From Dehalococcoidia bacterium (lineage in GTDB: Bacteria > Chloroflexota > Dehalococcoidia > Lucifugimonadales > JADFKI01), in assembly GCA_965243355.1 (NCBI GenBank), contig OZ251547.1:1815475-1879474 (forward strand): a stretch of DNA of 64,000 bases, written 5' to 3'. The notes under the pieces were generated by a model that was given only the letters and a program-made list of their open reading frames with translations, did no database searches and was not told the DNA's origin. This document shows positions 44,218 through 62,835 of this stretch, in pieces (the first letter of the stretch is position 1; the number at the start of each line of letters is the position of its first letter). A program made the translations under genes and the position numbers.

Positions 44218-44251
44218 TAGCGGCGCGGTTGTTATAGCAATCATCCTTAGA

Positions 44252-45932: not shown

Positions 45933-46064
45933 ATGAATGTCTCCTGTTGCGCGCGCGGCGGTTGGGGTTGTTGTGTTAGTATAACACTAAGGCGGGTAGG
46001 CGTCAGCAAGATGGGGGATATGAGGGCGCACGGGGGCCAAGCGGGGGCGCGGGGGCAGGGGGCC

Positions 46065-46106
46065 GCTCTACTTTTTTGGAAAAAAGTAGCAAAAAACTTT
46101 TGGGGG
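46065..46106 (+). repeat. AT-rich dyad element, copy 7
   Basis: gctctacttttttggaaaaaagtagcaaaaaacttttggggg. Lies upstream of the thiG start (45932, minus strand). Confidence 0.9.
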
Positions 46107-46131
46107 CGGCTATCGCCGCGGATTTGCCGAG

Positions 46132-47511: not shown

Positions 47512-47545
47512 GTTGGTTGCCTCCAAGCCTCTCTTCCGCCGGGGT

Positions 47546-47586
47546 GCTACTTTTTGGAAAAAAAGTGGCAAAACTTTTGGGTGGGT
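47546..47586 (+). repeat. AT-rich dyad element, copy 8
   Basis: gctactttttggaaaaaaagtggcaaaacttttgggtggg. Lies in the divergent spacer 47511(-)/47694(+). Confidence 0.9.
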
Positions 47587-47693
47587 GTATGGGTATATTT
47601 GTTCGCATTAAGAATAACGGGAGGTTCAAGTGGTGTCAAGGGTTATTTTCAAATTGGCAAATTGCGCTATAATAGGAATATAGGAGGCGAGCA

Positions 47694-48554
47694 ATGGTAG
47701 TTGAGATACGAACTTCGCAGGATCTGTTGGATCTGCTTGACAATAATGAAGAGTTTCGGCGGGCGGCGCGGCGGGCGCTGCTGACTGACGAGCTGCTGGA
47801 GTTGCCCGATATTGTGCGGGAGATGCAGCAGACGCAGCTGCTGATGATACAGCGAATGGACAAGATGGATGCGCGGATGGATCAGATGGACGCGCAGATT
47901 CAGGAGATGCGGCAGACACAGCTGCTGATGATCCAGCGAATGGACAAGATGGACGCGCGGTTCGAGCAGGTGGACGCGCGCTTTGAGCAGGTTATCGCTG
48001 AGATGGCGAGCATGAACAAGCGGATTGGCAACCTTGAGGGACGGGTTGACAACATTGACAAGCGGGTTGTCGATATTGATGGGCGGCTGAGGGGTTGGGA
48101 GCTGGAGCGGGAGTCGATCAGAAAGTTGCTGCCGCGGCTGGCGCGAGAGTACGAAGTGATTCGCATAAGAGCGGTTAGCGCGGATGCGAGCAGGTCTGCG
48201 GTTAATGTGAATTATGTCTGGGCGGCGCGGTTTGATGAGGCGCTTGACGCGGCGCGCCGAGCGAGGCGCATTACGATTGATGAGGAGGACATACTTGGCA
48301 GAACCGATATTGTGGCATGGGGGCGGCGCAGAGTTGACGAGGCGAGGCTGTGGTTCGTGGTTCAGGCGTCGGCGACGATTGGGAATGATGATGTTGAGCG
48401 GGCGGCGGCGGGGGCGGTTGCGTTGCGAAAGGTGACCGGCGAGGATGCGGCGGCGGTGGTTTATGGGCGGCGCATCGCGGATCAGCAGTGGGATAGGGCG
48501 GGCGAGCTTGGGGTGACGGTTATGCTGGATGATGAGGATGGGGGACGGGAGTAG
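47694..48554 (+). CDS. Coiled-coil protein with degenerate DUF3782/PD-(D/E)XK-like C-terminal domain
   Basis: N-terminal heptad-like Met/Gln/Asp repeats with an 84-nt tandem duplication (47820-47903 / 47904-47987). The C-terminal layout recalls DUF3782 proteins; this is a weak assignment. Confidence 0.5.
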   Translation: MVVEIRTSQDLLDLLDNNEEFRRAARRALLTDELLELPDIVREMQQTQLLMIQRMDKMDARMDQMDAQIQEMRQTQLLMIQRMDKMDARFEQVDARFEQVIAEMASMNKRIGNLEGRVDNIDKRVVDIDGRLRGWELERESIRKLLPRLAREYEVIRIRAVSADASRSAVNVNYVWAARFDEALDAARRARRITIDEEDILGRTDIVAWGRRRVDEARLWFVVQASATIGNDDVERAAAGAVALRKVTGEDAAAVVYGRRIADQQWDRAGELGVTVMLDDEDGGRE

Positions 48555-48693
48555 CGGTTTTCTCAATTTTTGGGCGCGGCGTTGGGCGCTTTAAGAAGGG
48601 TAGAGGCGTAAGCGGGCGTCAAGGGGGGGATTTTGGGATAGGGTTGTGGTATTATCGGGGGGTGGGTACATCCTGAAGCTGAGAGGGCGGCGT

Positions 48694-49131
48694 ATGAGTT
48701 GCGAGCAGGCTACGGCGCAGGCGCTGAAGGAGTCGGGGCATCGGCTGACGCCGCAGCGCCTGATGATTTTGTCCGCCATTCGCCATTCGGAGGTTCATAT
48801 CACGGCGTCGGAGATTTACGACGAGGTTAAGGCGTCGTATCCGTATATCGATGTGTCGACGGTGTATCGGACGCTGGGGGTGCTGAAGCAGATGCGGCTG
48901 GTGTCGGAGACGGATATGGGGGGCGGCGAGTATCGGTATGAGTGGATAAATCAGTTGCGGCATCATCATTTGATTTGCCGCGGGTGCGATAAGGTGGCGC
49001 TGCTTGACAATAAGTATTGGGAGAATATCGGGGCTGAGATAATGTCGGATTACGGGTTTCAGCCGGATATTGACCATATCGCGCTGTTCGGGGTGTGCCA
49101 TGAGTGTCTTGAGCGGGCGGACGGGGAGTAG
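48694..49131 (+). CDS. fur: Fur family transcriptional regulator
   Basis: LTPQRLMILSAI winged helix, with HHHLICRGC and CHEC metal sites. Confidence 0.85.
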   Translation: MSCEQATAQALKESGHRLTPQRLMILSAIRHSEVHITASEIYDEVKASYPYIDVSTVYRTLGVLKQMRLVSETDMGGGEYRYEWINQLRHHHLICRGCDKVALLDNKYWENIGAEIMSDYGFQPDIDHIALFGVCHECLERADGE

Positions 49132-49139
49132 CGGCGGTT

Positions 49140-50498
49140 ATGTTGGCGGTTGCTGAGAAGGCGGCGCGGTATGATTGCGCGGCGGTGTCGCTGTCTAGGC
49201 GCGTGGCGCGCTTGGTAGCCGAGGATGCGGCGGCGCAATCGTCATACGGCCGCGCGGCGGTTCATTCTGAGGATGCGCTGGCGGTTTTGTGGAGCAGGGC
49301 GCATAGTTTGGCGGAGGCGCTGGTTACGGAGGATGGGCGTCGGTTGCGGGTTGTGTATCCGGGCAGGCGCAGCGCGGCGGCGGGGCCGGATTTTCGGGAT
49401 GCGGTTTTGGTGGACGAGGCGGGCGGGCGTTTGGTGGGTGATGTGGAGTTGCATATTAGCGCGGGTGGTTGGCGGGCGCATGGGCATCATGTTGACGCTA
49501 ATTATAACGGCGTGGCGCTGCATGTGGTTTTTTCGCCGAAGGGGAGTCGGGTTACGCGGTTGCAGTCGGGGATGGAGGCGCCTGTGGCGGCGTTGGAGGG
49601 GGTTGCGGCTAGGCTGGAGGGGGCGTCGGATGATGCGTTGCCGGATTTGGCGGGGGTTAGGCTGACGGGCGATCCTGACGAGGTTGCGGCGGCTTTGGAT
49701 GCGGCGGGGGATGCGCGGTTTTTGGCTAAGAGTAGGGGGTTTGGGTTGGAGTTGGGGGCGTTGGATGCTGATGAGGTTTTGTATCGCGGGTTGATGGATG
49801 CTTTGGGGTATTCGGCTAATCGCGGGGCGTTTGGGGCGCTGGCGCGGCGCGTGGGGTATCGGGCGCTGGCGGGGTTGCGGGATACGCCGCGGGGGACTCG
49901 GCCGGCGGCGGTTAAGGCGATGCTGCTGGGGGCGTCGGGGTTGATGGGGGCGGCGGATATGATAGAGGGCGTTGGGGAGTTGCGGGGCGTCAGAAAGCGG
50001 TTGCCGTATGTTAAGCCTGTGGCTAGGCGGGAGTGGTGGTTGTTTCGGGTTAGGCCGGCTAATCATCCGGCGCGGCGGATTGTGGGGGCGGCGCTGATTG
50101 TGGAGGGGTGTTTGGATGACGGGTTGGCTAGGGCGTTTGAGGGGGCGCTGATGGCGGGCGGGAGCAGAGGGTTGATGGCGCGGCTGGTGGTGAAGCCGTA
50201 TGTGGGGGTTGCGCGGGCGCGGGATGTGTTGGTGAATGTGGCGTTGCCGTTTTTGCATGCGTATGGGGTTGCGGGCAGTGCCGGGCAGGGATCCGGCGGC
50301 GGTAGCGCGTTGGCTAGGGCGGCGTTGGAGGCGTATGCGGGTGCGCCGAAGTTGCAGGAGAATGAGATTACGCGGGAGATGCGGCGGTTGTGCGGGATTG
50401 ATGGCAAGGCGCGGTTGACGGCGCGGCGGCAGCAGGGGTTGATGCAGTTGTATCGGACGGGCGTGATGGGGGCGAATAGGGGGCGGGTGTGGGGATAG
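49140..50498 (+). CDS. DUF2851 family protein
   Basis: VVYPGRRSAAAGPDFRDAVL...GDVELHISAGGWRAHGHHVDANYNGVALHVVF matches the DUF2851 signature as I recall it. Confidence 0.65.
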   Translation: MLAVAEKAARYDCAAVSLSRRVARLVAEDAAAQSSYGRAAVHSEDALAVLWSRAHSLAEALVTEDGRRLRVVYPGRRSAAAGPDFRDAVLVDEAGGRLVGDVELHISAGGWRAHGHHVDANYNGVALHVVFSPKGSRVTRLQSGMEAPVAALEGVAARLEGASDDALPDLAGVRLTGDPDEVAAALDAAGDARFLAKSRGFGLELGALDADEVLYRGLMDALGYSANRGAFGALARRVGYRALAGLRDTPRGTRPAAVKAMLLGASGLMGAADMIEGVGELRGVRKRLPYVKPVARREWWLFRVRPANHPARRIVGAALIVEGCLDDGLARAFEGALMAGGSRGLMARLVVKPYVGVARARDVLVNVALPFLHAYGVAGSAGQGSGGGSALARAALEAYAGAPKLQENEITREMRRLCGIDGKARLTARRQQGLMQLYRTGVMGANRGRVWG

Positions 50499-51412
50499 GG
50501 TGTGTGCGCCGTGCGGTGGGATTGGCGATTGTGGTGGCGCTAATGCTGGTGGTAGCGGCGTGCGTGGGTGGGACTGCCGATGATGCGGCGGGTGACCAAG
50601 CGGCGGCGACGTCAGGGGGCGAGACGTTGCGGTTGGTGGTTGGGGCTAACGATTTGGCGGTGGGGAGCAATCGGGTTGTGTTTGGGGTGATAGATCCGGG
50701 TGAAGGGGCGATAAGGGGGGAGCAGGTGCGGGTGTCTAGTTTTTGGTTGCCGCCGGATGGGGAGCGGGTGGGGCCGGTTGAGAGCGTGGAGGCGGTGTTT
50801 CGGGAGTGGCCGGTGTCGCCGCGGGGGGTTTATACGGCGGAGTTGCGGTTTGATAGGGCGGGGGATTGGGGGATTGGGGTGGTTGTTGTGGGACCTGGCG
50901 GGAGCGAGCGGAGGGCGTCTGTGCGGGTGGGGGTGAAGGCGGAGTCGGGGACGCCGGCTGTGGGGGAGCGGGCGCCGGCGAGTCGGAGCAAGACTTTGGC
51001 GGATGTGGGGGATATTGGGGAGCTGACTACGGATGTGGATCCGGATGCGGGGTTGTATGAGGTGAGTGTGGCGGAGGCGCTGGAGATGGGGATGCCGCTG
51101 GTGGTGGTGTTTTCTACGCCGGGGTATTGTCAGACGGCGACTTGTGGGCCGCAGTTGGATGTGGTTAAGCAACTCAGAGCGGAGTATGAAGGGCGGGTGA
51201 ATTTTGTGCATGTGGAGGTGTATGACAATCCGGATGAGATTGGGGGGGATTTGAGCAGGGCTGTGGTGTCGCCGACGGTGGGGGAGTGGGGGTTGGCGAG
51301 CGAGCCGTGGACGTTTGTGGTGGATGGGGAGGGGGTTGTGCGGGCTAAGTATGAGGGGTTTGCGACGCGGGGGGAGGTGGAGGAGGGGGTGAGGGGGGTG
51401 ATAGGGGAGTGA
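50489..51412 (+). CDS. Lipoprotein with C-terminal thioredoxin-fold domain (CxxxC, SCO/TlpA-like)
   Basis: Lipobox LVVAAC. VVFSTPGYCQTATCGP is a redox/copper-type motif. Confidence 0.6.
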   Translation: MGIGCVRRAVGLAIVVALMLVVAACVGGTADDAAGDQAAATSGGETLRLVVGANDLAVGSNRVVFGVIDPGEGAIRGEQVRVSSFWLPPDGERVGPVESVEAVFREWPVSPRGVYTAELRFDRAGDWGIGVVVVGPGGSERRASVRVGVKAESGTPAVGERAPASRSKTLADVGDIGELTTDVDPDAGLYEVSVAEALEMGMPLVVVFSTPGYCQTATCGPQLDVVKQLRAEYEGRVNFVHVEVYDNPDEIGGDLSRAVVSPTVGEWGLASEPWTFVVDGEGVVRAKYEGFATRGEVEEGVRGVIGE

Positions 51413-51464
51413 GGGCGGGATTGTAGGCGAGTTAGCGGGGGTGTTGTTGTCATTGGGTTTTTAG

Positions 51465-51528
51465 GCAAAAGCTGAGACCGCCCATTAAGAGCGGTCTCGC
51501 GCCCTGGCACCGAAGCAGCAGGGGAATT
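51465..51528 (-). ncRNA. Candidate small RNA, copy 1 (5-prime stem-loop plus intrinsic terminator)
   Basis: Minus strand reads AAUUCCCCUGCUGCUUCGGUGCCAGGGCGCGAGACCGCUCUUAAUGGGCGGUCUCAGCUUUUG. It is preceded by TTGACA, 17 nt spacer, TATACT. Confidence 0.5.
51466..51498 (-). terminator. Intrinsic terminator of sRNA copy 1
   Basis: gagaccgc/gcggtctc stem followed by a CUUUUG tract on the minus strand. Confidence 0.6.
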
Positions 51529-51534
51529 AGGTTA

Positions 51535-51563
51535 AGTATAGTTGGGTTGTGGGTGGGTGTCAA
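51535..51563 (-). promoter_or_regulatory. Sigma70-consensus promoter of sRNA copy 1
   Basis: Minus strand TTGACA (51558-51563), 17 nt spacer, TATACT (51535-51540). Confidence 0.6.
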
Positions 51564-51574
51564 GGGTTTTTGGG

Positions 51575-51595
51575 TTGGACGCCGTTGACGATGAT
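51575..51595 (-). pseudogene. Remnant of a DUF1330 gene 3-prime end
   Basis: The minus strand encodes IIVNGV(Q), against IIVDGV-stop at the end of the intact DUF1330 gene (53220-53240). The surrounding DNA is also homologous. Confidence 0.4.
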
Positions 51596-51599
51596 TATT

Positions 51600-52223
51600 C
51601 TACCAGCGTGGGGGTTTGTGGAATGTGCCTGTGGCGTCTGTTAGGGTGTGGGGGAATTGGCTTGCGCTTAGGGGGCCTTGCCTTATGGGCCTGTAGAAAC
51701 TGGCTGCGTCTTTCAATACCCGATTGGGCCTCTTTTGCGGATTTAGCACTCCTACACTTAGGCCGAATTCGTCCTGGACAATTTTTATTGGGGTTAGGAG
51801 GTCTGCGTCGTTTGATACGACTACGGCTTGTTCGTATTCGTTTCTGAAGGCGTCTAGGAGCAGGTAGCTTGCTAGGTTGACGTCGGTTCCTTTTTCCTCG
51901 GTTCTGAGGACTTCGACCATCCGAGAGCCGTCTGCGGGCGGGCGGGATAGCGGCATTCTGCGCGGGTTGGTTTGGAAGTATCCAAGGTGAACTGAGAGGT
52001 TGGGGATTGTGCGGATGGCGCGGAGATAGGTTTGCTGCCGATGCCCCTTTTGGGTATCGTGTGGGGGTGGATTGACCAGGGCGGCGAAGTATCTGATTCG
52101 ATTTACCCGGCAACCCGGCAGCAGCAGGTTGAATAGGGTTAGGAAGTCAAGCCATTTGTACGGGGCGCCTTGGAGGCTGCCCTTGTATAGGTTGAATCCG
52201 TCTATGTAGAAGTTAGTCAGCAT
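51600..52223 (-). CDS. NYN (LabA-like, PIN-related) domain nuclease
   Basis: MLTNFYIDGFNLYKG..., EEKGTDVNLA and VVVSNDADL acidic motifs typical of the NYN domain. Visibly lower GC than its neighbours. Confidence 0.8.
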   Translation of the reverse strand: MLTNFYIDGFNLYKGSLQGAPYKWLDFLTLFNLLLPGCRVNRIRYFAALVNPPPHDTQKGHRQQTYLRAIRTIPNLSVHLGYFQTNPRRMPLSRPPADGSRMVEVLRTEEKGTDVNLASYLLLDAFRNEYEQAVVVSNDADLLTPIKIVQDEFGLSVGVLNPQKRPNRVLKDAASFYRPIRQGPLSASQFPHTLTDATGTFHKPPRW

Positions 52224-52228
52224 TTTTC

Positions 52229-52259
52229 ACAAAAGCTGAGACCGCCCGAAGGCGGTCTC
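52229..52259 (-). terminator. Intrinsic terminator between sRNA copy 2 and the NYN ORF
   Basis: gagaccgcc-cgaa-ggcggtctc (9 bp stem, tetraloop) followed by a CUUUUGU tract. Confidence 0.6.
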
Positions 52260-52292
52260 GCGCCCTGCCGCCGAACCGACAGGGGAGTTCAC
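52229..52292 (-). ncRNA. Candidate small RNA / leader, copy 2, ending 14 nt before the NYN start codon
   Basis: Minus strand reads GUGAACUCCCCUGUCGGUUCGGCGGCAGGGCGCGAGACCGCCUUCGGGCGGUCUCAGCUUUUGUG. Same architecture as copy 1. Confidence 0.5.
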
Positions 52293-52298
52293 GCATTA

Positions 52299-52328
52299 AG
52301 TATAATCCGGATCTAAACGGGGTGTCAA
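52299..52328 (-). promoter_or_regulatory. Sigma70-consensus promoter of sRNA copy 2 / NYN
   Basis: Minus strand TTGACA (52323-52328), 18 nt spacer, TATACT (52299-52304). Confidence 0.6.
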
Positions 52329-52420
52329 GGGTTTTTGGGGTATGGTATTCTTACCTTGCAGTGCTGATATGATATACTTGCCCTAAACCGCTCCGAAACC
52401 GCTGAAAGGCAGGTGTCATT

Positions 52421-53190
52421 ATGGCGAGCCAAAGAGTGTACAGACATGACGCGCTATGCCCGAAATGCGGCTCGAATTGGGTCAAGAAAGACGGCCACTC
52501 GCGCGGCAAGCAGATATTTAAGTGCAACCAGTGCGGCCGCAAGCATCAAGAGGGCGCAAAGCATCGGTTCACCGATGAGCAGAAAGAGCAGGCTGTGAAG
52601 ATGTGCGCGGAGGGGATGAGCCTATCGGCGACCGCCCGCGTGATGGGCGCGAGCGTACCCACTGTAAGCAAGTGGGTCAAAAAAAGGGGGCCTTGGCGAG
52701 AGAGCGTCTGACGCGCTTTATAGAGTGGCGTACAAGTGGGCGGCAAGACAGCGTCCGCGCGTCTATTGTGGCGTTTGATGAGATGTGGACATACTTGGGG
52801 ATAAGGCGCGGCGAGCGGCGTCAAGACCTGTGGATATGGACTGCGGTGGTGGAGGAACGGGACGGAGTCCGCTGGCGGATGTATGAGGTGGGCGGCAGAG
52901 ACTTGTCCGCGTTCTCGCGCTTGCTGGATCGGCTGCCGGGAGCTGACAGGTATGAGACAGACGCTTATCCGGTGTACGAATGGCTGCCTCGGGACAGGCA
53001 TGTGATAGGCAAGGGCGGAGCGGTGAACTGGAATGAGGGGCTGCACTCTAAGCTGAGGAGCAAACTCAACAGGCTGGTAAGGCGGACAAAGGGCTACACA
53101 AAGAGCGTGGAGATGCTGAAACATCTGCTGGCGATAGTGTTTGAGGAGTGCCTAAATCAGTCCATCAAATCAATGAACACTGCAAGGTAA
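52421..53190 (+). CDS. IS1-family transposase InsAB (InsA 52421..52711; InsB frame joined by -1 frameshift)
   Basis: InsA zinc finger CPKCGS...CNQCGRK plus an HTH. InsB frame contains VAFDEMWTYLG. The two frames overlap at an A7 run. Confidence 0.85.
52679..52685 (+). other. Programmed -1 ribosomal frameshift site (A7 slippery run)
   Basis: gtc aaa aaa agg in the InsA frame. The -1 frame continues KKGALARERL... of the InsB ORF. Confidence 0.7.
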
Positions 53191-53219
53191 GAATACCTGG
53201 GGTATTGGGTGGTTTTGGG

Positions 53220-53507
53220 TTAGACGCCGTCGACTATGATGACGCTGCTGGTGGTGGAGGCGATACGCATTTGTTTGGGGGCGGCGTATTCGGGGGAGTC
53301 GTACCACTGGCGGGCGCGTTGGACGCTGGGGAATTGGAGGATGACGGTGCGGGTGGGGGTCCAGTCGCCCTCGCGGACTTCGCTGTCGCCGCCGCGGACT
53401 AGGTATTTGCCGTCGTAGGCGGCTACGGTGGCGGGGACGAGTTTGCGGTATTCGTCGAATAGGGCGGGGTCGGTTACGTTTACGTCGGCTATTACGTATC
53501 CTGGCAT
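53220..53507 (-). CDS. DUF1330 domain protein
   Basis: MPGYVIADVNVTDPALFDEYRKLVPATVAAYDGKYLVRGG is a typical DUF1330 sequence, 95 aa. Confidence 0.8.
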   Translation of the reverse strand: MPGYVIADVNVTDPALFDEYRKLVPATVAAYDGKYLVRGGDSEVREGDWTPTRTVILQFPSVQRARQWYDSPEYAAPKQMRIASTTSSVIIVDGV

Positions 53508-53573
53508 TGGTTCACCTCGCGGGTTTTTGGGTTGGGGTTGTCGTATGTGGTAGGCGTCGGACAGTGTGTATTG

Positions 53574-53981
53574 TCACGGCTGTAGGGGTGCGATGTCAAG
53601 GGGGTTGGGGCGGTGTTGCCAGCCGCGGGCGGTGGCGATGGTTCTCAGTTCGTCTGCGGCATATCTGGTCATTCCTCTGGTGAGCGCGGTGAAGTCTATT
53701 AGCGTGTGCTCAGGGAAGGGGGCAGGGTCGGGGGTGACTGCGAGGTCTAGCGATTCACATTCGGCTACGGTGACCGCTAGTACTCCTACGGCGTTTTGGC
53801 CGAGGCCCGGGGGAGAGCCGGTGTAGTGTTCGTAGGCGTCTTGGGGGGTGATTTGGTCGCCGTCATATACGGATAGGCGGCCGTTGTCTTTTCGGGTGGG
53901 CTTGAAAACTTGGGATGTGGGATTGCCGTCTTTCATAAATGACGGGCTGACCATCCGATAGAGCAGGGTGTCCGGGGTCAT
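53574..53981 (-). CDS. Hypothetical protein (135 aa), downstream member of a coupled pair; candidate toxin/effector
   Basis: ATG 53981 overlaps the upstream stop as ATGA. MTPDTLLYRMVSPSF...GRLSVYDG...VAECESL. I recognise no family. Confidence 0.55.
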   Translation of the reverse strand: MTPDTLLYRMVSPSFMKDGNPTSQVFKPTRKDNGRLSVYDGDQITPQDAYEHYTGSPPGLGQNAVGVLAVTVAECESLDLAVTPDPAPFPEHTLIDFTALTRGMTRYAADELRTIATARGWQHRPNPLDIAPLQP

Positions 53982-54610
53982 CCGGCTCGCTCCAGAGTCT
54001 CGAGGATTTTGGCTGCCATCCAAGTCCACGCGCTAGGGTCGTCCAAATTGAGGGTCTCTTCTTCCTCAAAGGTTTTGGTTCTTCTTTTGAATCGTATCCA
54101 GTCCGCTTGGCGGGCGTTTAGGTCGATTTCAATCTCGATGTAGAATTGCCCTATCGACCATTCGCATTGGACGCCGCCGTCGAAGGTGGGGTAGGTGTGT
54201 GGCAGCGGGATGTCGGCGGGGTATCCGCGTTGGAATGCGTGGGAGAGCCAGTCTAGGCCGCTGTGGGACGGGGCTTTGCCGTCGCCCTCGTACCAGCCGT
54301 CTTGCATATTGCGAAATTCGTCTAGGGAGGCGTGGAAGTCTAGCGGATGGAGTATGGCGACGCGCTCTACCGATTTTAGGGCGAGCGGGCGGTCTTTGGG
54401 GTCAGGGTTGCCCGCGCCGTCAACTACGCCCTCAATTAGGACGCGGGTGGCGTTTTTGTGGCCGTTGAGGGCTTTTAGGAAGGCGGCGTAGCATTGGTCA
54501 GGGATGGGGCCGGATATTTTGTTGTGGCCGTGAATGGGCTGAAGTTTGAAGGTCATATTGGCTTGGTTGAGTTCGGTTATTTCGCCGCGGATGGCGATTT
54601 TTTTGGACAT
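53978..54610 (-). CDS. Hypothetical protein (210 aa), upstream member of a coupled pair; candidate antitoxin/immunity
   Basis: AGGAG RBS before ATG 54610. C-terminal pattern DGWYEGDGKAP...PTFDGGVQCEWSIGQFYIEIEID. I recognise no family. Confidence 0.55.
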   Translation of the reverse strand: MSKKIAIRGEITELNQANMTFKLQPIHGHNKISGPIPDQCYAAFLKALNGHKNATRVLIEGVVDGAGNPDPKDRPLALKSVERVAILHPLDFHASLDEFRNMQDGWYEGDGKAPSHSGLDWLSHAFQRGYPADIPLPHTYPTFDGGVQCEWSIGQFYIEIEIDLNARQADWIRFKRRTKTFEEEETLNLDDPSAWTWMAAKILETLERAG

Positions 54611-54657
54611 TCCCCGCTCCTGTCTAGCCATATTGAGATGATGGGGGTATAGGTGGG

Positions 54658-54686
54658 ATTTTAGGCGGGAAGGTGCGGTTTGTAAA
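54658..54686 (-). promoter_or_regulatory. Candidate sigma70 promoter of the two-gene pair
   Basis: Minus strand TTTACA (54681-54686), 17 nt spacer, TAAAAT (54658-54663), about 45 nt upstream of ATG 54610. Confidence 0.5.
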
Positions 54687-54775
54687 GGGGTGGAGGCGTA
54701 GGTGGTAGCGTTGTATCTGAGGGTGAGGGGATTGGAGCGTGGCGCCGTTATGGATATGCTACCACGCTTGCGCGT

Positions 54776-55480
54776 TTAGGGTAACGCGATGAATAGCCAA
54801 TCATCGATAAATAACCATGGGTCGTCGTACATCACCAGGGAGTCGACGTCTGATGATTTGACGCTGAAGCAGATGTTTCCGCTTAGCTCGCCGCTTTGGA
54901 ATAGATCGCGGGAGCTTTCAAACTCGTTTGGTATCACGCCGCAGCTCGTATCAAACTGCGTGTATTCAACATTTGAGTCGCCTACAGCGCGCAAACGAAA
55001 ACCAGCGTCGAAGTTTTTGGGTTCAGGGTTGTTGTTCTTAGCCTTGATTTGCACCAAAAAGTATTGATGCCCCTCAGGTGGAGAACTGTTGAATTGGTTT
55101 TCATCCAGGACTATTTGTGTAGCGTCGTGAACAACTTCTTCTATCCACAACGAAAATCCGTCGGCGGTAATAATTTGGTCGCCAAACGGGATTGGGTTGT
55201 CTCGGGTCTCGCCTAGAGGCGCGGCTGTTGGGGTTCTGGTTGGGGATCCAATTGAGCCTGTTGATGCGCCAGGCTCGCTGTCACTGCCTGACGATACCAG
55301 CACAATGATCAACACGAATGGCGCTATGATTGAGCCGAGGTAGATTCCCCATGATGCGCCATCGGTTTTCTTGGAGATCGCGCCGCCTATCATCACGAAC
55401 AGCCCCACGAATACGAATGTGAGCAGTCCGCACATCGCCGCGAGAAAGCGCCATTTCCTGGTTTCGTTCTCGGATGCCAT
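54776..55480 (-). CDS. Membrane-anchored DUF4352-like protein
   Basis: N-terminal TM helices. C-terminal NPIPFGDQIITADGFSLWIEEVVHDATQIVL...ELSGNICFSVKSSDVDSLVMY is paralogous to the next gene. Lower GC. Confidence 0.7.
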   Translation of the reverse strand: MASENETRKWRFLAAMCGLLTFVFVGLFVMIGGAISKKTDGASWGIYLGSIIAPFVLIIVLVSSGSDSEPGASTGSIGSPTRTPTAAPLGETRDNPIPFGDQIITADGFSLWIEEVVHDATQIVLDENQFNSSPPEGHQYFLVQIKAKNNNPEPKNFDAGFRLRAVGDSNVEYTQFDTSCGVIPNEFESSRDLFQSGELSGNICFSVKSSDVDSLVMYDDPWLFIDDWLFIALP

Positions 55481-55587
55481 TGTCGTACGTCCTTTTCGCT
55501 GAGGACGGGCGTGAACTTATTACGCCCGTCGGTTGTTCCAGAGTGGTTGGAGCGTGGCAGCATAGAACTGCCGCCACGCTTGTGTGC

Positions 55588-56412
55588 CTAGCGTAACGCG
55601 ATGAAGATATAATCGCTGCCATACTGGTAATACATCACCAGAGAGCCGGCGTCTGATGACTTGACGGTGAAGCAGATATTGCCGCTCAGTTCACCGCCTC
55701 CGAATATATTACGGGAGATGTCAAAACTGTCCGGTATGGTTCTGTAGTCGCAGCCCGTGTCGTATTCGAGGTTTGTATTTCCGACAAGATTCAGCGTATA
55801 AACGGGAAATCTTGCAGGCGTGTCACTTCCGTTCCTGACCTTGATTCTCACCAAGACATATTGGTTGCCGTCAGTCCGAGGATCGTTGCTTGGGCGCAGG
55901 CGTTCACCCAAGATTATCTGCGTAGCGTCCTCAACAACTTCTTCCAGCCACATGGAAAATCCGTCGTTGGTAATAATCTCCTCTCCAAACGGGATTGGAT
56001 TGCCTCTGGTCGCGCCCGGCGGCACAGGTGTTGGACTGGGCGTCGCGGTTGGGATAGGCGTGGCAGTGGGTAGAGGCGTGGAAGTGGGAAGTGGCGTATG
56101 TGTTGGGATTGGCGTATTCGTGGGGGCCGGAGTATGAGTTGAGGTCGGCAGGGGCGTGAACGTGGGGATAGGCGTGTAAGTTGGTTGCGGAGTGTAAGTA
56201 GGCTGAGGGGTGTAGGTCGGCGCTGGGATATAGGTCGCCGTGGGTTCAGGCGTAGAGGTCGGCGGCGCAGGTGTGTAGGTTGGCGCTAGAGTGGCAAGCG
56301 CGATTGCGGGTTCAGGGGTGTATGTTGGAAGGGGTTCGGGGGCGGTTCCGCCGCAGGCTGTGATGATGGTTATGGCAAGTGTTGTGCAAAGCGCTACGAT
56401 GTTTCTCAGCAT
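55588..56412 (-). CDS. Lipoprotein with Pro/Thr-rich linker and DUF4352-like domain
   Basis: Lipobox IITAC after MLRNIVALCTTLAIT (ATG 56412, GAGGGGG RBS). Long TYTPQPTYTPQPTYTP linker. C-terminal domain is paralogous to 54776..55480. Confidence 0.7.
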   Translation of the reverse strand: MLRNIVALCTTLAITIITACGGTAPEPLPTYTPEPAIALATLAPTYTPAPPTSTPEPTATYIPAPTYTPQPTYTPQPTYTPIPTFTPLPTSTHTPAPTNTPIPTHTPLPTSTPLPTATPIPTATPSPTPVPPGATRGNPIPFGEEIITNDGFSMWLEEVVEDATQIILGERLRPSNDPRTDGNQYVLVRIKVRNGSDTPARFPVYTLNLVGNTNLEYDTGCDYRTIPDSFDISRNIFGGGELSGNICFTVKSSDAGSLVMYYQYGSDYIFIALR

Positions 56413-56678
56413 TGCAAAGCCCCCTCGTGGAATTGGGATCGCATCCGTTCCAGGGAGCTTGCCCACGCCTGTCAGCGTCCACTCAGGGGCGTAGCGATAC
56501 GCCCCTAAGCGTTGACAGGACACAGGACACAAGTTTAGGTATGTTTTGCGAATGGGCAAATGGGCGGCGCGCGAGGCGCAGTCCGTTTGCTCCCTGGAAC
56601 GAATACAGGTTACCATATGGGGTAGAGTTTGTGCAAAGATAGGTCCGCGAGATGCGGTTAGCGAGTGAAGGATGGGAT

Positions 56679-57836
56679 ATGCTGGATTATTTTGGGGTTA
56701 TGGATGGGGTGACGGGGGAGGAGCGGCAGGCGCAGGGGGCGGCTAGGGCGTTTGTGGAGGGGGAGGTGATGGGGAGGGTGGCGGAGTGGTGGGAGAGGGG
56801 GGAGTTTCCGCGGGAGATGATACCCAAACTGGGGGAGATGGGGTTTTTGGGGGCGAATTTGCCGGAGAGGTATGGGGCGAGCGGGGTGAGTAGCGCGGCG
56901 TATGGGCTGATTATGTATGAGTTGGAGCGGGGGGATAGCGGGTTTCGGAGTTTTGCGAGCGTGCAGGGGGCGCTTGTGATGTATCCGATTTTCAGGTATG
57001 GGTCGGAGGAGCAGCGGCGGGAGTATCTTCCCAAGATGGCGGCGGGGGAGGTGGTGGGGTGTTTTGGGCTGACGGAGCATGACGGCGGGTCGGATCCGGG
57101 GGCTATGAAGACTAGGGCGCGCAGGGATGGGGAGTCGTTTGTGTTGTCGGGGGTGAAGATGTGGATTACTAACGGGGGTATCGCGGATGTGGCGGTGGTG
57201 TGGGCTAAGGATGATGATGGCGTTGTGCGGGGGTTTATCGTGCCGACTGATTCGCCGGGGTTTCGGGCGAATGCGATTAGGCGGAAGATGAGTATGCGGG
57301 CGTCTGTGACTAGCGAGTTGGTTATGGATGAGGTGCGGGTTGCGGCGTCTCAGATGTTGCCGGAGGCGCGGGGGTTGTCGGCGCCGTTGTCGTGTTTGAC
57401 GCAGGCGCGGTATGGGATCGCGTGGGGGGCGCTGGGGGCGCTGGAGGCGGTGTATGAGGATGCGCTGGGGTTTTCGCAGGCGCGGGGGACTTTCGGCAAG
57501 CCGATTGCGGCTAGGCAGCTGGTGCAGGGGAAGTTGGTGGATATGGTTACGGATCATACGAATGGGCTGCTGTTGGCGCGTCGGTTGGCGGAGTTGAAGG
57601 ATGCGGGGGTTATGTCGCATACGCATGTGTCTATGGCGAAGCGGCAGAATGTGCGGGCGGCGCTGACGGCGGCTCGGAGCGCGCGGGAGATTTTGGGGGG
57701 GAGCGGGATTACGCTGGATCATCCGGCGATTAGGCATATGCTTAATTTGGAGACGGTGGATACTTATGAGGGGACGTATGATATTCATACGTTGATACTG
57801 GGAAGGGATATTACGGGGCATAATGCGCTGGTGTGA
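56679..57836 (+). CDS. Acyl-CoA dehydrogenase (glutaryl-CoA dehydrogenase-like)
   Basis: GCFGLTEHDGGSDPGAMKTRA and YEGTYDIHTLILGR motifs. Confidence 0.85.
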   Translation: MLDYFGVMDGVTGEERQAQGAARAFVEGEVMGRVAEWWERGEFPREMIPKLGEMGFLGANLPERYGASGVSSAAYGLIMYELERGDSGFRSFASVQGALVMYPIFRYGSEEQRREYLPKMAAGEVVGCFGLTEHDGGSDPGAMKTRARRDGESFVLSGVKMWITNGGIADVAVVWAKDDDGVVRGFIVPTDSPGFRANAIRRKMSMRASVTSELVMDEVRVAASQMLPEARGLSAPLSCLTQARYGIAWGALGALEAVYEDALGFSQARGTFGKPIAARQLVQGKLVDMVTDHTNGLLLARRLAELKDAGVMSHTHVSMAKRQNVRAALTAARSAREILGGSGITLDHPAIRHMLNLETVDTYEGTYDIHTLILGRDITGHNALV

Positions 57837-57870
57837 GCGTGGGGGCGCGACGAAAGAAAGTAGGGGGGAC

Positions 57871-57906
57871 GCTACTTTTGAAAAAGTAGGCAAAACTTTT
57901 TGGGGG
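57871..57906 (+). repeat. AT-rich dyad element, copy 9
   Basis: gctacttttgaaaaagtaggcaaaactttttggggg. Lies between the tandem plus-strand genes 57836/57996. Confidence 0.9.
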
Positions 57907-57995
57907 AGGGCGCAAGGGACAAGATTAAGGGAATGATATGGGCGCGGGGTTCAAGCGGCGGCGATGATAAGAGATGCAAAGCAGAGGGGGACGCA

Positions 57996-58520
57996 ATGAT
58001 AAGGAGTTTGGGCGGGGTTTCGCCGAAGATACACGAGACGGCGTTTGTGAGCGAGTTCGCTTATGTGGTGGGGGATGTTGAGATTGGGGAGGGATCGAGT
58101 GTGTGGCCGGGGGCGATTGTGCGGGGGGATATGGGGAAGATTACCATCGGCAAGCATACGAATGTGCAGGATAATTCGGCGGTTCACGGGGATGCTGATG
58201 TTGAGATTGGGGATTATGTGACTATCGGGCATAAGGTTTTGTGCCACGCTAGGCGGGTGGGGGATGGGTGTGTGCTGGGGAATGGGGCGATTGTGAATGA
58301 TGGGGTTGAGATTGGGGAGTATAGTCTGGTGGCGTCGGGGACTATGCTGGTGGATAATGTGAAGATACCGGCGCGGTCGCTGGTGGTGGGGTCGCCGGGG
58401 AAGGCGATACGGGAGGTGAGCGAGCGGCATTTGGCGCGGATGAGGTGGTATTGCGATGTGTATATGGAGAAGACTGCGCGGTATAAGGCGGAGGGGAATT
58501 TGGAGAGTGCGCGGGAGTAG
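57996..58520 (+). CDS. Gamma-carbonic-anhydrase-like / hexapeptide-repeat (LbH) protein
   Basis: SPKIHETAFVSEFAYVVGDVEIGEGSSVWPGAIVRGD left-handed beta-helix repeats. GAGGGGG RBS before ATG 57996. Confidence 0.8.
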   Translation: MIRSLGGVSPKIHETAFVSEFAYVVGDVEIGEGSSVWPGAIVRGDMGKITIGKHTNVQDNSAVHGDADVEIGDYVTIGHKVLCHARRVGDGCVLGNGAIVNDGVEIGEYSLVASGTMLVDNVKIPARSLVVGSPGKAIREVSERHLARMRWYCDVYMEKTARYKAEGNLESARE

Positions 58521-58597
58521 GCGGGGGCAAGGCGGCTGAGTGGCAAGGCGGGTAGGCGGCAGTCGGGGCTGCCGCCGCTTTCGCAATGTGGGGTGGG

Positions 58598-60277
58598 TTA
58601 TTCGCGGTGCATTGTTTGGGGGGCGTCCATAATCATTAGGGATAGGCAGCGGGCTAGGGTGATTTGGGTTGCCTCGGCTAGTTTTAGGCGGGCTTTGGTT
58701 AGGGCTGCCTCTTCTTGGGCGGCGGATACTACGCGGCAGTTTTGGTAGAAGAGGTGGAAGGCGGTGGCGAGTTCGTAGGCGTAGTGTGGGAGGTGGTGCG
58801 CCTCGAGGCTGCGCGCCATCATGTCTATGATTTCGGGTAGGGCGAGCATTTTGCGTATGAGGGCGAGTTCGGCGGGGTGTGTTAGCGGGGTTAGGTCGGC
58901 GTCTGCGTGGTTTATGTTGCGGTCGGCGGCTAGGCGGAGGATGCTTGCGATGCGGGCGTGGGCGTATTGGATGTAATAGACGGGGTTTTCTTGGGATTGG
59001 CGCTTGGCGAGGTCTAGGTCGAATTCCATTTGGCTGTTGGCGTCGCGGGATAGGAAGAAGTAGCGGCAGGCGTCCGCGCCGACTTCGTCTATGACTTCGC
59101 GGAGGGTGATGATGTCGCCGGAGCGTTTGGATATGCGGACGATTTCGCCGCCGCGTTTTAGGGTTACGAGCTGGTTGATGATTAGGGTTAGCTTGTCTTG
59201 GGGCAAGCCTAGCGCGGCTATCATGGCTTTCATAAATGGCGCGTGGCCTTGGTGGTCGGCGCCCCAGATGTTGATGACTTTGTGGAATTTGCGCTCGAAG
59301 AATTTGTTGTAGTGGTAGGCGACGTCGGAGGCGAAGTAGGTGGGGATGCCGTTGGCGCGGATCATCACTTTGTCTTTTTCGTCGCCTAGGGCGGTGGAGG
59401 CGAACCAGGTGGCGCCGTCGCGCCGGGCGATGTAGCCGCGTTGGTTGAGCAGGTCTAGGGCGCGTTGGAATTGGCCGTTTTGGAATAGGGTCGCCTCGTT
59501 GAACCATTCGTCGAATTGGACGCGGAGGAGGGCGACGTCTTGGCGGATGCGGGACATAAATTTGTTTAGGCCGATTGCGCCGAGTGTCTCAATCGCGGCT
59601 TGTTGGGGGTAATCAAGCAGCGCATCGCCTTGCTCGGCGTGGATTTCGGCGGCGAGGTCTATCATATATTCGCCTTGGTAGCCGTCGGGGGGAAGTAGGA
59701 CGGTGATGCCGCATTGTTGTTGGTAGCGTGCGTAGAGGGTGTTTTGGAAGTGGCCGATTTGGGCGCCGGCGTCGTTGAAGTAGTATTCGCGGGTGACTTG
59801 GTAGCCGGCGGCTTGGAGGATGTTGGCGAGGGCGCTGCCGAGGACGCCGCCGCGGGCGTGGGCGATGTGTAGGGGGCCGACGGGGTTGGCGCTGACGAAT
59901 TCGATTTGGATGGGTTGGTCGTTGCCGATGTCTAGGTTGCCGAAGGCGGGGCCGGCGGATCTTATGGCGTCCACTTGGTTTAGTAGCCAGTTTTGTTGGA
60001 GGGCGAAGTTGATGAAGCCGGGGGGCGCGACGGTTGCGTTGGCGAGCAGGTCGCCGGGGGGGATGCGCGTGGCTATGGCGTCGGCGATGCGAAGGGGGGG
60101 CATTCGCATTGGGCGGGCGAGTTTGAGGGGTAGGCTGGTGGCGAAGTCGCCGTGGTCGGGGTTTTGGGGGCGCTCGATGGGGATGTCGTCGATGGGGACG
60201 TCGGGGAGGGCTTGTTCGCGCTGGGCGGTGATTAGGGCTTGTTGGGTGATTTGGGCGATGTGGTGTTTTGTTAGCAT
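58598..60277 (-). CDS. argS: Arginyl-tRNA synthetase
   Basis: ANPVGPLHIAHARGG class I motif and a C-terminal DALR-type anticodon-binding domain. ATG 60277 follows a GGAG RBS. Confidence 0.92.
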   Translation of the reverse strand: MLTKHHIAQITQQALITAQREQALPDVPIDDIPIERPQNPDHGDFATSLPLKLARPMRMPPLRIADAIATRIPPGDLLANATVAPPGFINFALQQNWLLNQVDAIRSAGPAFGNLDIGNDQPIQIEFVSANPVGPLHIAHARGGVLGSALANILQAAGYQVTREYYFNDAGAQIGHFQNTLYARYQQQCGITVLLPPDGYQGEYMIDLAAEIHAEQGDALLDYPQQAAIETLGAIGLNKFMSRIRQDVALLRVQFDEWFNEATLFQNGQFQRALDLLNQRGYIARRDGATWFASTALGDEKDKVMIRANGIPTYFASDVAYHYNKFFERKFHKVINIWGADHQGHAPFMKAMIAALGLPQDKLTLIINQLVTLKRGGEIVRISKRSGDIITLREVIDEVGADACRYFFLSRDANSQMEFDLDLAKRQSQENPVYYIQYAHARIASILRLAADRNINHADADLTPLTHPAELALIRKMLALPEIIDMMARSLEAHHLPHYAYELATAFHLFYQNCRVVSAAQEEAALTKARLKLAEATQITLARCLSLMIMDAPQTMHRE

Positions 60278-60373
60278 GGGGTTGCTCCGGGGATGGTATG
60301 GGGATAAAAGATAAAGATACCAGAGGAGGCGGGGGCGCGCCACTATATTGATGGGGTTGGAAACGAGGGGGAC

Positions 60374-60410
60374 GCTACTTTTGAAAAAGTAGGCAAAACT
60401 TTTTGTGGGT
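60374..60410 (+). repeat. AT-rich dyad element, copy 10
   Basis: gctacttttgaaaaagtaggcaaaactttttgtgggt. Lies about 95 nt upstream of the argS start (minus strand). Confidence 0.9.
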
Positions 60411-60472
60411 GTTTAGAGGCGGGCTTGTTGGGATGATAATCGGTAGGAAGTCAAAGGGGGGATTGTATTGGG

Positions 60473-61573: not shown

Positions 61574-61579
61574 ATTCGG

Positions 61580-62820: not shown

Positions 62821-62835
62821 GGATGCAAGGCGGGC

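What the first reader, a model, noticed from the sequence alone, without database searches (positions are those of the whole stretch)
53574..54686. A translationally coupled two-gene pair of unknown function with its own strong promoter: candidate novel toxin-antitoxin or defence module
A 210 aa ORF (53978..54610) and a 135 aa ORF (53574..53981) overlap by ATGA. They are preceded by a good promoter (TTTACA, 17 nt spacer, TAAAAT) and an AGGAG RBS. They sit in the accessory island next to DUF1330, IS1 and the NYN unit. I recognise neither protein.

The small protein has an ordered pattern: aromatic-R (LLYRMV), then LSV (GRLSVYDG), then E-x-E (VAECESL). This is reminiscent of the R-S-ExE catalytic triad of small ADP-ribosyltransferase toxins. 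The similarity is a pattern only and the idea is speculative.

The larger protein ends in a W-x-G ... P-x-x-D-G-G-hydrophobic-x-x-E-W ... hydrophobic-E-hydrophobic-E pattern, which I associate with immunity or antitoxin-like accessory domains.

Gene size, order, overlap and context all fit a TA or abortive-infection style pair.
Basis: inference. Interest (0 to 1): 0.68.

Follow-up and report, generated by a model that had tools for sequence, protein, structure and literature searches.

The report
Uncharacterised toxin-antitoxin-like pair (PDC-M32 family)
The two overlapping genes are real. They form a compact mobile cassette of a widespread, untested family (the PADLOC candidate defence system PDC-M32) that looks like a toxin-antitoxin pair, but the chemistry of its small enzyme-like protein is unknown and is not shown to be ADP-ribosylation.

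Summary
Gene A (53978..54610, 210 aa) and gene B (53574..53981, 135 aa) lie on the minus strand, overlap by ATGA, and sit behind a TTTACA-17-TAAAAT promoter and an AGGAG ribosome-binding site.

Neither protein matches Pfam or NCBIfam. Both match the PADLOC candidate system PDC-M32 (A 4e-54, B 4e-45). That system was predicted because it is embedded in restriction-modification operons, and it has never been tested.

An A homologue sat directly upstream of B in all 94 B-seeded loci examined, from more than ten phyla. The overlap is 4 bp in 68 of the 83 loci measured. Type I restriction-modification genes lie within 7 kb in 28 of 83 loci.

A is modular. Its C-terminal domain is always present. 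Its N-terminus varies: nothing, an OB fold (as here), an extra ~170-aa domain, or known antitoxin modules (AF2212-like, Unstab_antitox). That is the build of a type II antitoxin.

B has a confident predicted structure with no significant structural neighbour. Its conserved polar residues are R9, S37, E74 and H92. The "ExE" motif is not conserved, and the only ART-like structural hit is insignificant (E 0.29).

Verdict: a new member, with a short form of A, of a catalogued but uncharacterised toxin-antitoxin/defence candidate family. Interest is moderate.

The parts
54658..54686 (-). Sigma-70-type promoter of the cassette (TTTACA, 17 nt, TAAAAT)
   Evidence: 10 of 12 consensus positions match; the -35 hexamer is invariant and the -10 hexamer nearly so (one copy has TAGAAT) in six copies in unrelated contexts, while the upstream flanks diverge.
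54617..54621 (-). AGGAG ribosome-binding site of gene A, 6 nt before the ATG at 54610
   Evidence: sequence. AGGAG is invariant among the copies.
53978..54610 (-). Gene A, 210 aa: short form of PDC-M32A and putative antitoxin/regulator
   Evidence: PDC-M32A 4e-54, covering profile positions 171-372 of 376; 59 homologue clusters, most about 210 aa; phrog_30544. AF2 pLDDT 89.
54347..54610 (-). N-terminal OB-fold domain of A (about aa 1-88), basic (pI 9.5)
   Evidence: Foldseek probability 1.0 to OB folds (AspRS anticodon-binding domain 5gro_A, SSBs, CST subunits); pI.
53981..54346 (-). C-terminal alpha/beta domain of A (aa 89-210), acidic (pI 4.6): the invariant partner of B and the presumed B-binding, neutralising module
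   Evidence: it is the only part of A present in all architectures; in relatives it is fused to AF2212-like or Unstab_antitox N-termini; no PDB sequence match.
53978..53981 (-). ATGA overlap (stop codon of A, start codon of B), preceded by GGAG at 53990..53993
   Evidence: the overlap is 4 bp in 68 of 83 related loci.
53574..53981 (-). Gene B, 135 aa: PDC-M32B, a putative enzymatic toxin/effector with conserved R9, S37, E74 and H92
   Evidence: PDC-M32B 4e-45, full length; 1361 representative clusters; conservation. AF2 pLDDT 91; no significant structural neighbour; phrog_31579.

Best explanation
This is a self-contained, horizontally mobile, roughly 1.15 kb two-gene cassette (own promoter, then A, then B). 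It is of the type II toxin-antitoxin kind and belongs to the uncharacterised family that PADLOC lists as candidate defence system PDC-M32.

Shown here: the genes, their coupling, the conserved promoter, the strict A-B pairing, the modular build of A, and the distribution of the family.

Inferred:
1. B is a small enzyme whose free form is harmful. Its active site is built from R9, S37, E74(D) and H92.
2. The acidic C-terminal domain of A binds and neutralises B.
3. The basic OB fold at the N-terminus of this short A is a nucleic-acid-binding module, used for autoregulation or as a sensor. It occupies the position held in other family members by DNA-binding antitoxin domains.
4. When A is lost or titrated (through segregation, stress, phage infection or loss of the flanking restriction system), B is freed and arrests growth.

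B's chemistry is unresolved. My leading guess, at about 35%, is metal-independent acid-base cleavage of RNA by H92 and E74, with R9 and S37 holding the phosphate. An NAD+-using activity (ADP-ribosyltransferase or NADase) is second, at about 15%.
For: - Both proteins match the PDC-M32 A and B profiles.
- An A homologue ends at the start of B in 83/83 genome loci and 11/11 viral-contig loci, all found by searching for B. The same holds in A-seeded checks. The overlap is 4 bp in 68/83 loci.
- The C-domain of A is the constant part. N-termini vary: none, OB, N-domain plus OB, AF2212-like (PF01954, 3.8e-7; a predicted AbrB-type antitoxin, PMC2701414), or Unstab_antitox (PF09720, 6.7e-5).
- B keeps near-invariant polar residues across 107 diverse members: R9 106, S37 106, H92 105, and E/D74 101.
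- Promoter and RBS are conserved among copies in unrelated contexts, and homology ends at the stop codon of B.
- The pair is multi-copy in single genomes (4 copies in one Dehalococcoidia MAG) and patchy across more than ten phyla.
- It lies between or next to hsdM/hsdS/hsdR in 28/83 loci.
- On Limnohabitans plasmid pTEGF4 it sits inside a cluster of RelE/ParE, VapBC and CopG modules.
- Locus L002 has an intact A with a frameshifted B.
Against: - No experiment exists for any member. PDC-M32 is an untested prediction.
- B is acidic here (pI 5.0; family median 6.4), which is unusual for RNA-cleaving toxins.
- No known toxin fold or family is detected for B, and no known antitoxin fold for the C-domain of A.
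- One locus (L039) shows a frameshifted A with an intact B. If real and not a long-read sequencing error, that argues against lethal toxicity.
- The window's B differs at two positions that are at least 90% conserved elsewhere: M10 where 97/107 have Q, and A64 where 97/107 have S. Both substitutions are typical of its clade.
- No operator-like palindrome was found at the promoter.
Confidence: 0.6

Rival explanations
1. A dedicated anti-phage abortive-infection system, not merely an addiction module. A is a sensor: its OB fold or N-domain detects a phage nucleic acid or protein, or the inactivation of a neighbouring type I restriction enzyme, in the way PrrC guards EcoprrI. It then releases or activates B, which kills or arrests the infected cell. 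This overlaps with the best explanation and differs in the biological role and the trigger.
For: - The family was picked up by guilt-by-embedding in BREX/DISARM/type I RM operons.
- 28/83 loci have hsdM/S/R within 7 kb, typically in the order hsdM-A-B-hsdS-hsdR.
- Other neighbours are RhuM, ImmA/IrrE, FRG, ThsB-TIR, Fic, and PRTase-CE with ORC/CDC6-like genes.
- The variable N-terminal modules of A fit fast-evolving sensors.
- The window copy lies 1.3 kb from an NYN protein that matches candidate HEC-09.
Against: - In the window's own lineage the copies are solo cassettes among metabolic genes, with no defence genes nearby.
- C-domain-only forms of A have no sensor module.
- Many ordinary toxin-antitoxin modules are also embedded in type I RM operons.
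- No member has been tested. The neighbouring HEC-09 type gave no protection when it was tested.
- There is no match in 50,697 isolated phage genomes, and only 11 hits in IMG/VR viral contigs.
Confidence: 0.3
2. One reading: B is a minimal ADP-ribosyltransferase or NADase toxin of the R-S-E clade. R9 lies on strand 1, S37 on strand 2, and E74 is the catalytic glutamate. A is its immunity protein.
For: - R9, S37 and E74(D) are conserved in that order, and on strand 1, strand 2 and just after strand 3.
- The single best PDB neighbour is AvrPphF ORF2 (1s21), which I recall (not tested here) as a type III effector with an ART-like head.
- B is not basic, which fits a small-molecule-using enzyme.
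Against: - The 1s21 hit is not significant: E 0.29, probability 0.41, TM 0.38, rmsd 11.9 Å. No other ART, PARP, RES, DarT or Tpt1 structure appears among the 50 best.
- No ART or RES Pfam model matches any of 45 members, even at E up to 10.
- The second E of 'ExE' is present in only 22/107 members, and there is no S-T-S motif.
- An invariant histidine (H92) is not part of the R-S-E signature.
- B has five strands in about 120 residues. By my recollection of ART structures (not tested here), that is smaller than any known ART core.
Confidence: 0.12
3. This is not a conflict module at all. A and B would form a two-subunit accessory factor for DNA or RNA metabolism, for example a modulator of type I restriction-modification or a prophage regulatory pair, with no toxic component.
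For: - A contains an OB fold.
- The pair is frequently associated with hsd genes.
- B is acidic, and one locus has a broken A with an intact B.
- The arrangement is syntenic in a related genome.
Against: - Two thirds of loci have no RM genes nearby.
- The pair is multi-copy, has a patchy cross-phylum distribution, carries its own promoter, and has sharp cassette boundaries.
- The C-domain is fused to antitoxin modules in relatives.
- It lies in a plasmid toxin-antitoxin cluster.
Confidence: 0.1

Closest known systems
PADLOC phage defence candidate PDC-M32 (Payne et al., bioRxiv 10.1101/2024.01.29.577857; cassette CAS_00128)
   Same: Both proteins match its two HMM sets (A 4e-54, B 4e-45). The gene order A then B and the tight coupling are the same.
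   Different: The window's A lacks the N-terminal ~170 residues of the PDC-M32A profile; the match covers positions 171-372 of 376. This copy is not embedded in an RM/BREX/DISARM operon. PDC-M32 itself is an untested prediction with no known mechanism.
Classical type II toxin-antitoxin modules (e.g. VapBC with AF2212-like/AbrB antitoxins, RelBE, ParDE)
   Same: It is a bicistronic antitoxin-then-toxin operon with a 4-bp overlap and its own promoter. The first protein is modular, with a variable N-terminal module and a constant partner-binding domain. Some relatives carry AF2212-like or Unstab_antitox N-termini. The pair is multi-copy, mobile and patchy, and one copy lies in a plasmid toxin-antitoxin cluster.
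   Different: Neither B nor the C-domain of A belongs to any described toxin or antitoxin family or fold. A is larger than most antitoxins and uses an OB fold. Toxicity, neutralisation and autoregulation are all untested.
PrrC/EcoprrI-type abortive-infection genes embedded in type I restriction-modification operons
   Same: In about a third of relatives the pair sits among the hsd genes (typically hsdM-A-B-hsdS-hsdR), the position where PrrC-like guards are found.
   Different: There is no ABC-ATPase or anticodon-nuclease domain. It is two genes, not one. The window copy has no hsd genes nearby.
R-S-E ADP-ribosyltransferase toxins and RES/ParT or DarT toxin-antitoxin toxins
   Same: B is a small toxin-like protein with a conserved Arg, then Ser, then Glu in order, paired with an upstream partner.
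   Different: There is no sequence-profile match and no significant fold match. ExE and S-T-S are not conserved, and B has an extra invariant His. The partner is not a macrodomain, ARH or Xre/DUF2384 protein.

Membership tests
PADLOC candidate system PDC-M32 | A protein matching a PDC-M32B profile | tested here: met
   PDLC04579, E 4.3e-45; residues 1-124 against profile positions 1-121 of 123.
PADLOC candidate system PDC-M32 | A protein matching a PDC-M32A profile over most of its length | tested here: inconclusive
   PDLC04574, E 4.1e-54, but only profile positions 171-372 of 376. The N-terminal ~170 aa are absent. This short form is itself conserved (54 clusters of 205-213 aa).
PADLOC candidate system PDC-M32 | A and B adjacent, on the same strand, with A upstream | tested here: met
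   ATGA overlap; the same arrangement in all 94 B-seeded loci.
PADLOC candidate system PDC-M32 | Embedding in a type I RM, BREX or DISARM operon (the basis of the prediction) | tested here: not met
   The window copy is flanked by DUF4352 and DUF1330/NYN genes. Relatives have hsd genes within 7 kb in 28/83 loci. The source paper also counts non-embedded homologues.
PADLOC candidate system PDC-M32 | Protection against phage | not testable with these tools
   The PDC systems are described as untested. Only one other paper mentions PDC-M32, and only as a PADLOC hit.
Type II toxin-antitoxin module | Small bicistronic operon with coupled translation and its own promoter | tested here: met
Type II toxin-antitoxin module | Antitoxin built from a DNA-binding or regulatory module plus a toxin-binding module | tested here: inconclusive
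   The window's A is a basic OB fold plus a constant acidic C-domain. Relatives carry AF2212-like or Unstab_antitox N-termini. DNA binding and B binding were not tested.
Type II toxin-antitoxin module | Toxin harmful alone and neutralised by direct binding of the antitoxin | not testable with these tools
   There are only indirect hints: a broken B with intact A in L002, and the reverse in L039. Both are long-read assemblies.
Type II toxin-antitoxin module | Mobile, multi-copy, patchy phylogenetic distribution | tested here: met
   332 loci in more than ten phyla, with 4 copies in one MAG; the same cassette in unrelated contexts; present on plasmids.
R-S-E ADP-ribosyltransferase toxins | Arg on strand 1, S-T-S on strand 2, (Q/E)-x-E before strand 5, all conserved | tested here: not met
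   R9 106/107 and S37 106/107 (as L-S-V-Y, not S-T-S); E74 93 plus 8 D; E76 only 22/107; position 72 is mostly V.
R-S-E ADP-ribosyltransferase toxins | ART fold (split beta-sheet NAD+ cleft) | tested here: inconclusive
   no hit at E <= 0.001. The best is 1s21 at E 0.29 and TM 0.38, and no other ART is in the top 50; no named viral ART.
RES-domain (ParT/MbcT) toxins | Match to the RES domain profile | tested here: not met
   no Pfam family for the window protein, and no RES hit for any of 45 members at E <= 10.
OB-fold nucleic-acid-binding domains (N-terminal domain of A) | Five-stranded closed beta-barrel with a structural match to OB folds | tested here: met
   strands 4-15, 20-25, 32-35, 56-63 and 76-86. 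Foldseek probability 1.0 to 5gro_A (TM 0.54 on the target), SSBs and CST subunits. Ligand binding was not tested.

The most novel reading that the evidence does not exclude
B would be the founding member of a new enzymatic toxin fold, with an R-S-E/D-H active site and no structural neighbour in PDB or BFVD. A would be a new kind of modular antitoxin-sensor: a constant B-clamping domain wired to interchangeable input modules (OB fold, a ~170-aa domain, AbrB-like domains). The family would then be a true anti-phage or anti-anti-restriction abortive-infection system with a new chemistry and a new trigger logic.
Probability: 0.25. Interest if true: 0.75.

Novelty: new member of a known kind. Interest (0 to 1): 0.45.

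Why it matters
The family is large: at least 1361 clusters at 50% identity for B. It occurs across more than ten phyla, in prophage-like contigs and on plasmids, and often inside type I restriction operons. Yet it has no Pfam entry, no solved or recognisable structure for B, and no experiment.

This analysis gives concrete handles for testing:
- the minimal functional unit (the C-domain of A plus B);
- four candidate catalytic residues in B;
- the interchangeable N-terminal modules of A, which point to how the pair is regulated or triggered.

If B proves to be a toxin, it would add a new toxin fold and possibly a new backup layer behind restriction-modification. If it is inert, a PADLOC candidate can be retired. 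For this window specifically, the result is one more copy of a catalogued candidate, so the local finding is of moderate interest.

Tried and rejected
- Pfam, NCBIfam and PDB sequence searches found nothing significant. I searched with single proteins and with profiles of B (45 and 107 sequences), the C-domain of A, the N-domain of long A, and unusual long A forms.
- Foldseek of the B model against PDB and BFVD gave no hit at E <= 0.001. The best named hit was AvrPphF ORF2, at an insignificant score. One unnamed viral protein scored E 6.7e-3.
- I considered a Cys-His-Asp hydrolase (C75/H92/D85) and dropped it. C75 is replaced by A, V or S in 15 of 107 members, and D85 is present in only 81 of 107.
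- I considered a PD-(D/E)xK or GIY-YIG nuclease and dropped both. The motifs do not line up and there is no structural hit.
- I looked for an operator palindrome at the promoter. Only two short, distant inverted repeats were found.
- An Rfam scan of 51-56 kb returned nothing meaningful.
No A-B complex model, and no model of the long-form N-domain, could be made.
Full report
**1. The observation**

Two ORFs lie head to tail on the minus strand. A runs 53978..54631 from the first ATG. Homologues begin at the second ATG, 54610 (MSKKIAIRGE..., 210 aa). B is 53574..53981 (135 aa). The stop of A and the start of B share ATGA at 53981..53978, with a GGAG 8 nt upstream.

A sigma-70-like site, TTTACA-17 nt-TAAAAT, lies at 54686..54658 and matches 10 of 12 positions. 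The region holds 3 such sites against 0.9 expected. AGGAG sits 6 nt before the 54610 ATG.

This sequence is full of long spurious ORFs because of its composition, so ORF length alone is no evidence. Homology is. A has relatives at 4e-130 and B at 1e-70.

I aligned the upstream regions of six copies: the window, the syntenic L001, and four paralogous copies in one Dehalococcoidia MAG that lie in unrelated places. The -35 hexamer is invariant, the -10 hexamer nearly so (one copy has TAGAAT), and the GGCT...AGGAG block is conserved, while everything further upstream is unalignable.

**2. What the proteins are**

Neither protein matches Pfam or NCBIfam. Both match PADLOC's candidate system PDC-M32:
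- B matches over its full length (E 4.3e-45).
- A matches at E 4.1e-54, but only to positions 171-372 of the 376-position profile.

They also match PHROG families of unknown function, phrog_31579 and phrog_30544.

PDC-M32 comes from Payne et al. (bioRxiv 10.1101/2024.01.29.577857). That work collected gene cassettes embedded in BREX, DISARM and type I RM operons. The cassette FAM_01821>>FAM_00608 (count 98) was "assigned as candidate PDC-M32". The 145 PDC systems are explicitly untested. The only other paper that mentions PDC-M32 reports it as a PADLOC hit in a Sinorhizobium prophage.

**3. The pairing is strict and the family is broad**

A profile of B found 332 loci in the one-genome-per-species collection. 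They span Chloroflexota/Dehalococcoidia (the closest relatives of the window), Gamma-, Alpha- and Deltaproteobacteria, Planctomycetota, Acidobacteriota, Spirochaetia, Bacteroidota, Gemmatimonadota, Paceibacterota and others. An exhaustive search found 1361 representative clusters at 50% identity, and the best 150 are all free-standing proteins of about 125 aa.

In all 83 genome loci analysed, and in all 11 IMG/VR viral contigs, an A homologue ends at the start of B. The overlap is exactly 4 bp in 68 of the 83.

Clustering of the neighbouring ORFs gave three recurrent families. Pfam identified them as HsdM, HsdS and HsdR. Type I RM genes lie within 7 kb in 28 of 83 loci, typically in the order hsdM-A-B-hsdS-hsdR. 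Other neighbours include RhuM, ImmA/IrrE, FRG, ThsB-TIR and Fic.

The picture is different in the window's own lineage. There the copies are solo insertions among metabolic or housekeeping genes, between RecQ and an ABM-domain gene with PPK2 next in one case and next to a PMT-family gene in another. The window's arrangement (acyl-CoA dehydrogenase, two DUF4352 proteins, A, B, DUF1330, NYN, DUF2851) recurs in a 3.4 Mb contig without the IS1.

The pair is rare on sequenced plasmids (5 of 72,556) and absent from isolated phage genomes. On Limnohabitans plasmid pTEGF4 it lies in a cluster of RelE/ParE, VapBC, HTH-RelE and CopG-ParE modules.

**4. Anatomy of A**

The AlphaFold2 model has pLDDT 89. 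It shows an N-terminal five-stranded barrel (residues about 1-88) that Foldseek matches at probability 1.0 to OB folds: the anticodon-binding domain of AspRS, SSBs and CST subunits. A C-terminal alpha-alpha-beta5-alpha domain follows (89-210). The OB part is basic (pI 9.5) and the C-domain acidic (pI 4.6).

Across loci, A comes in several architectures:

| Architecture | Approx. length | Loci (of 83) |
|---|---|---|
| Unknown N-domain + OB + C-domain | ~375 aa | 53 |
| OB + C-domain (window type) | ~210 aa | 8 |
| C-domain only (some cut by contig ends) | ~135-180 aa | 20 |
| Other N-terminus + C-domain | 282-341 aa | 2 |

A profile of the C-domain alone retrieved 595 proteins, many of them C-domain-only. 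Among 66 of these, four carry an N-terminal AF2212-like domain (PF01954, best E 3.8e-7). One carries Unstab_antitox (PF09720; E 6.7e-5, scoring exactly at the gathering threshold). AF2212/COG2880 is a predicted AbrB-superfamily antitoxin of PIN toxins (PMC2701414). These variants are also followed by B with a short overlap (B profile E 1e-55 to 1e-60).

A constant partner domain behind a swappable N-terminal regulatory or DNA-binding module is the standard build of a type II antitoxin. This is my main argument that A is the neutraliser and B the effector. By positional equivalence, the OB fold of the window's A is most simply a nucleic-acid-binding regulatory or sensing module. That step is inference.

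**5. Anatomy of B**

The model is confident (pLDDT 91, pTM 0.84). Its topology is beta1, beta2, alpha, beta3, a short alpha, beta4, beta5, and a long alpha.

Foldseek finds nothing at E <= 0.001 in PDB or BFVD. The best PDB hit is AvrPphF ORF2 (1s21) at E 0.29, probability 0.41, TM 0.38 and rmsd 11.9 Å. No other ADP-ribosyltransferase, RES, DarT or RNase toxin appears among the top 50. The best viral hit is an unnamed protein at E 6.7e-3. Profile searches of PDB sequences are empty.

Conservation across 107 diverse members is as follows:

| Residue | Members (of 107) |
|---|---|
| R9 | 106 |
| S37 | 106 |
| H92 | 105 |
| F26 | 107 |
| P28 | 100 |
| E74 | 93, plus 8 with D |
| D32 | 90 |
| C75 | 89 (A, V or S in most of the rest) |
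| E76 | 22 |

An invariant histidine is added, and the ART fold is not demonstrated. I rate the ADP-ribosyltransferase reading at about 0.12. A Cys-His-Asp hydrolase is unlikely, because C75 and D85 are dispensable in many members.

B is not basic (pI 5.0 here; family median 6.4). That weakens, but does not exclude, an RNase. I still rank acid-base RNA cleavage by H92 and E74 first, on priors alone: most toxin-antitoxin toxins and RM-embedded toxins are RNases. I say plainly that the chemistry is unresolved.

The window's clade also carries M10 and A64 where at least 90% of the family has Q and S, plus a short insertion (most clearly P58-L60, which 103-104 of 107 members lack). In the window and in L001 the stop codon has moved, adding about 9-10 residues to the C-terminus.

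**6. Mechanism, and what is shown versus inferred**

Shown:
- real genes, coupling and a conserved promoter;
- strict pairing and the modular build of A;
- a mobile, multi-copy and patchy distribution;
- frequent embedding in RM operons and a plasmid toxin-antitoxin-cluster context.

Inferred:
- B is harmful when free;
- the C-domain of A binds and blocks it;
- the OB fold regulates or senses;
- release of B arrests growth, either as addiction or as abortive infection.

Indirect hints on toxicity cancel out. L002 has an intact A with a frameshifted B, and L039 has the reverse. Both are long-read assemblies, where indel errors are common.

The defence reading is a rival of role, not of mechanism. 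I give it about 0.3, because the window lineage's copies are not in defence contexts and nothing has been tested.

**7. Comparison and novelty**

By HMM match and gene order, the pair is a member of the PDC-M32 candidate family. It has a shorter A that is itself conserved in more than 50 public clusters. It works like a type II toxin-antitoxin module, but neither protein belongs to a described toxin or antitoxin family.

It is not a PrrC-like, RES, DarT or R-S-E ART system by any test I could run. The finding is therefore not new as a catalogue entry. What remains open, and interesting, is the biochemistry of the whole family. Interest: 0.45.

Noticed in passing
window 1-64000 (detail 44000-64000): The plus strand has an extreme GC skew. 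(G-C)/(G+C) is +0.17 to +0.45 in 4-kb windows across the whole window and reaches +0.55 in 1-kb windows, whatever the gene orientation. Proteins encoded on the minus strand are rich in P, T, H and Q, and those on the plus strand are rich in G, V, R and A. This is far above my recollection of typical bacterial replication skew.
   Followed up: partly
window ~52341-53201: An IS1-family element (InsA/InsB-like ORFs at 52421..53190) is inserted between the DUF1330 and NYN genes. It has terminal inverted repeats (GGTATTCTTACCTTGCAGTG) and an 8-bp target duplication, ATACCCCA. It is absent from the otherwise syntenic L001, so the insertion is recent.
   Followed up: yes
window 51600-52223 (-): The neighbouring NYN-domain protein matches PADLOC HEC-09 (E 8e-37) and phrog_7929. 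The HEC-09 representative tested by Payne et al. gave no protection against the phages tried.
   Followed up: partly
window 52224-52300 (-): Directly upstream of the NYN start there is a leader with two hairpins, conserved in L001. The second is terminator-like (a 9-bp GC-rich stem followed by UUUU). A TTGACA...TATACT promoter-like site precedes it. Folding z-score is -3.3 and there is no Rfam match. It may be an attenuator or a small RNA.
   Followed up: partly
window 53570-53599 (-): A promoter-like site, TTGACA-18-GACAAT (10 of 12), lies inside the 3' extension of B, upstream of the DUF1330 gene (53220..53507). In the window and L001, B has lost the family's usual stop and runs about 9-10 codons further.
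   Followed up: partly
window 54776-55480 and 55588-56616 (-): Two paralogous DUF4352-like proteins lie just upstream of the cassette. The second is a probable lipoprotein with a long Pro/Thr-rich linker (TYTP repeats). Genes occupy the corresponding positions in L001.
   Followed up: no
L002 8001-9504: A long-form A (377 aa) is followed by a B split by a frameshift. It lies next to IS1-like transposase fragments in a 3.5 Mb contig from the same sample as L001. In L039 the reverse is seen: A is split into three frames and B is intact. Both may be long-read indel errors.
   Followed up: partly
L096-L098 (about 5000-7700): The AF2212-like variant of the pair lies upstream of a DNA methylase, a PRTase-CE protein and an ORC/CDC6-like protein. 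By my recollection (not tested here), that trio is typical of predicted conflict systems.
   Followed up: no
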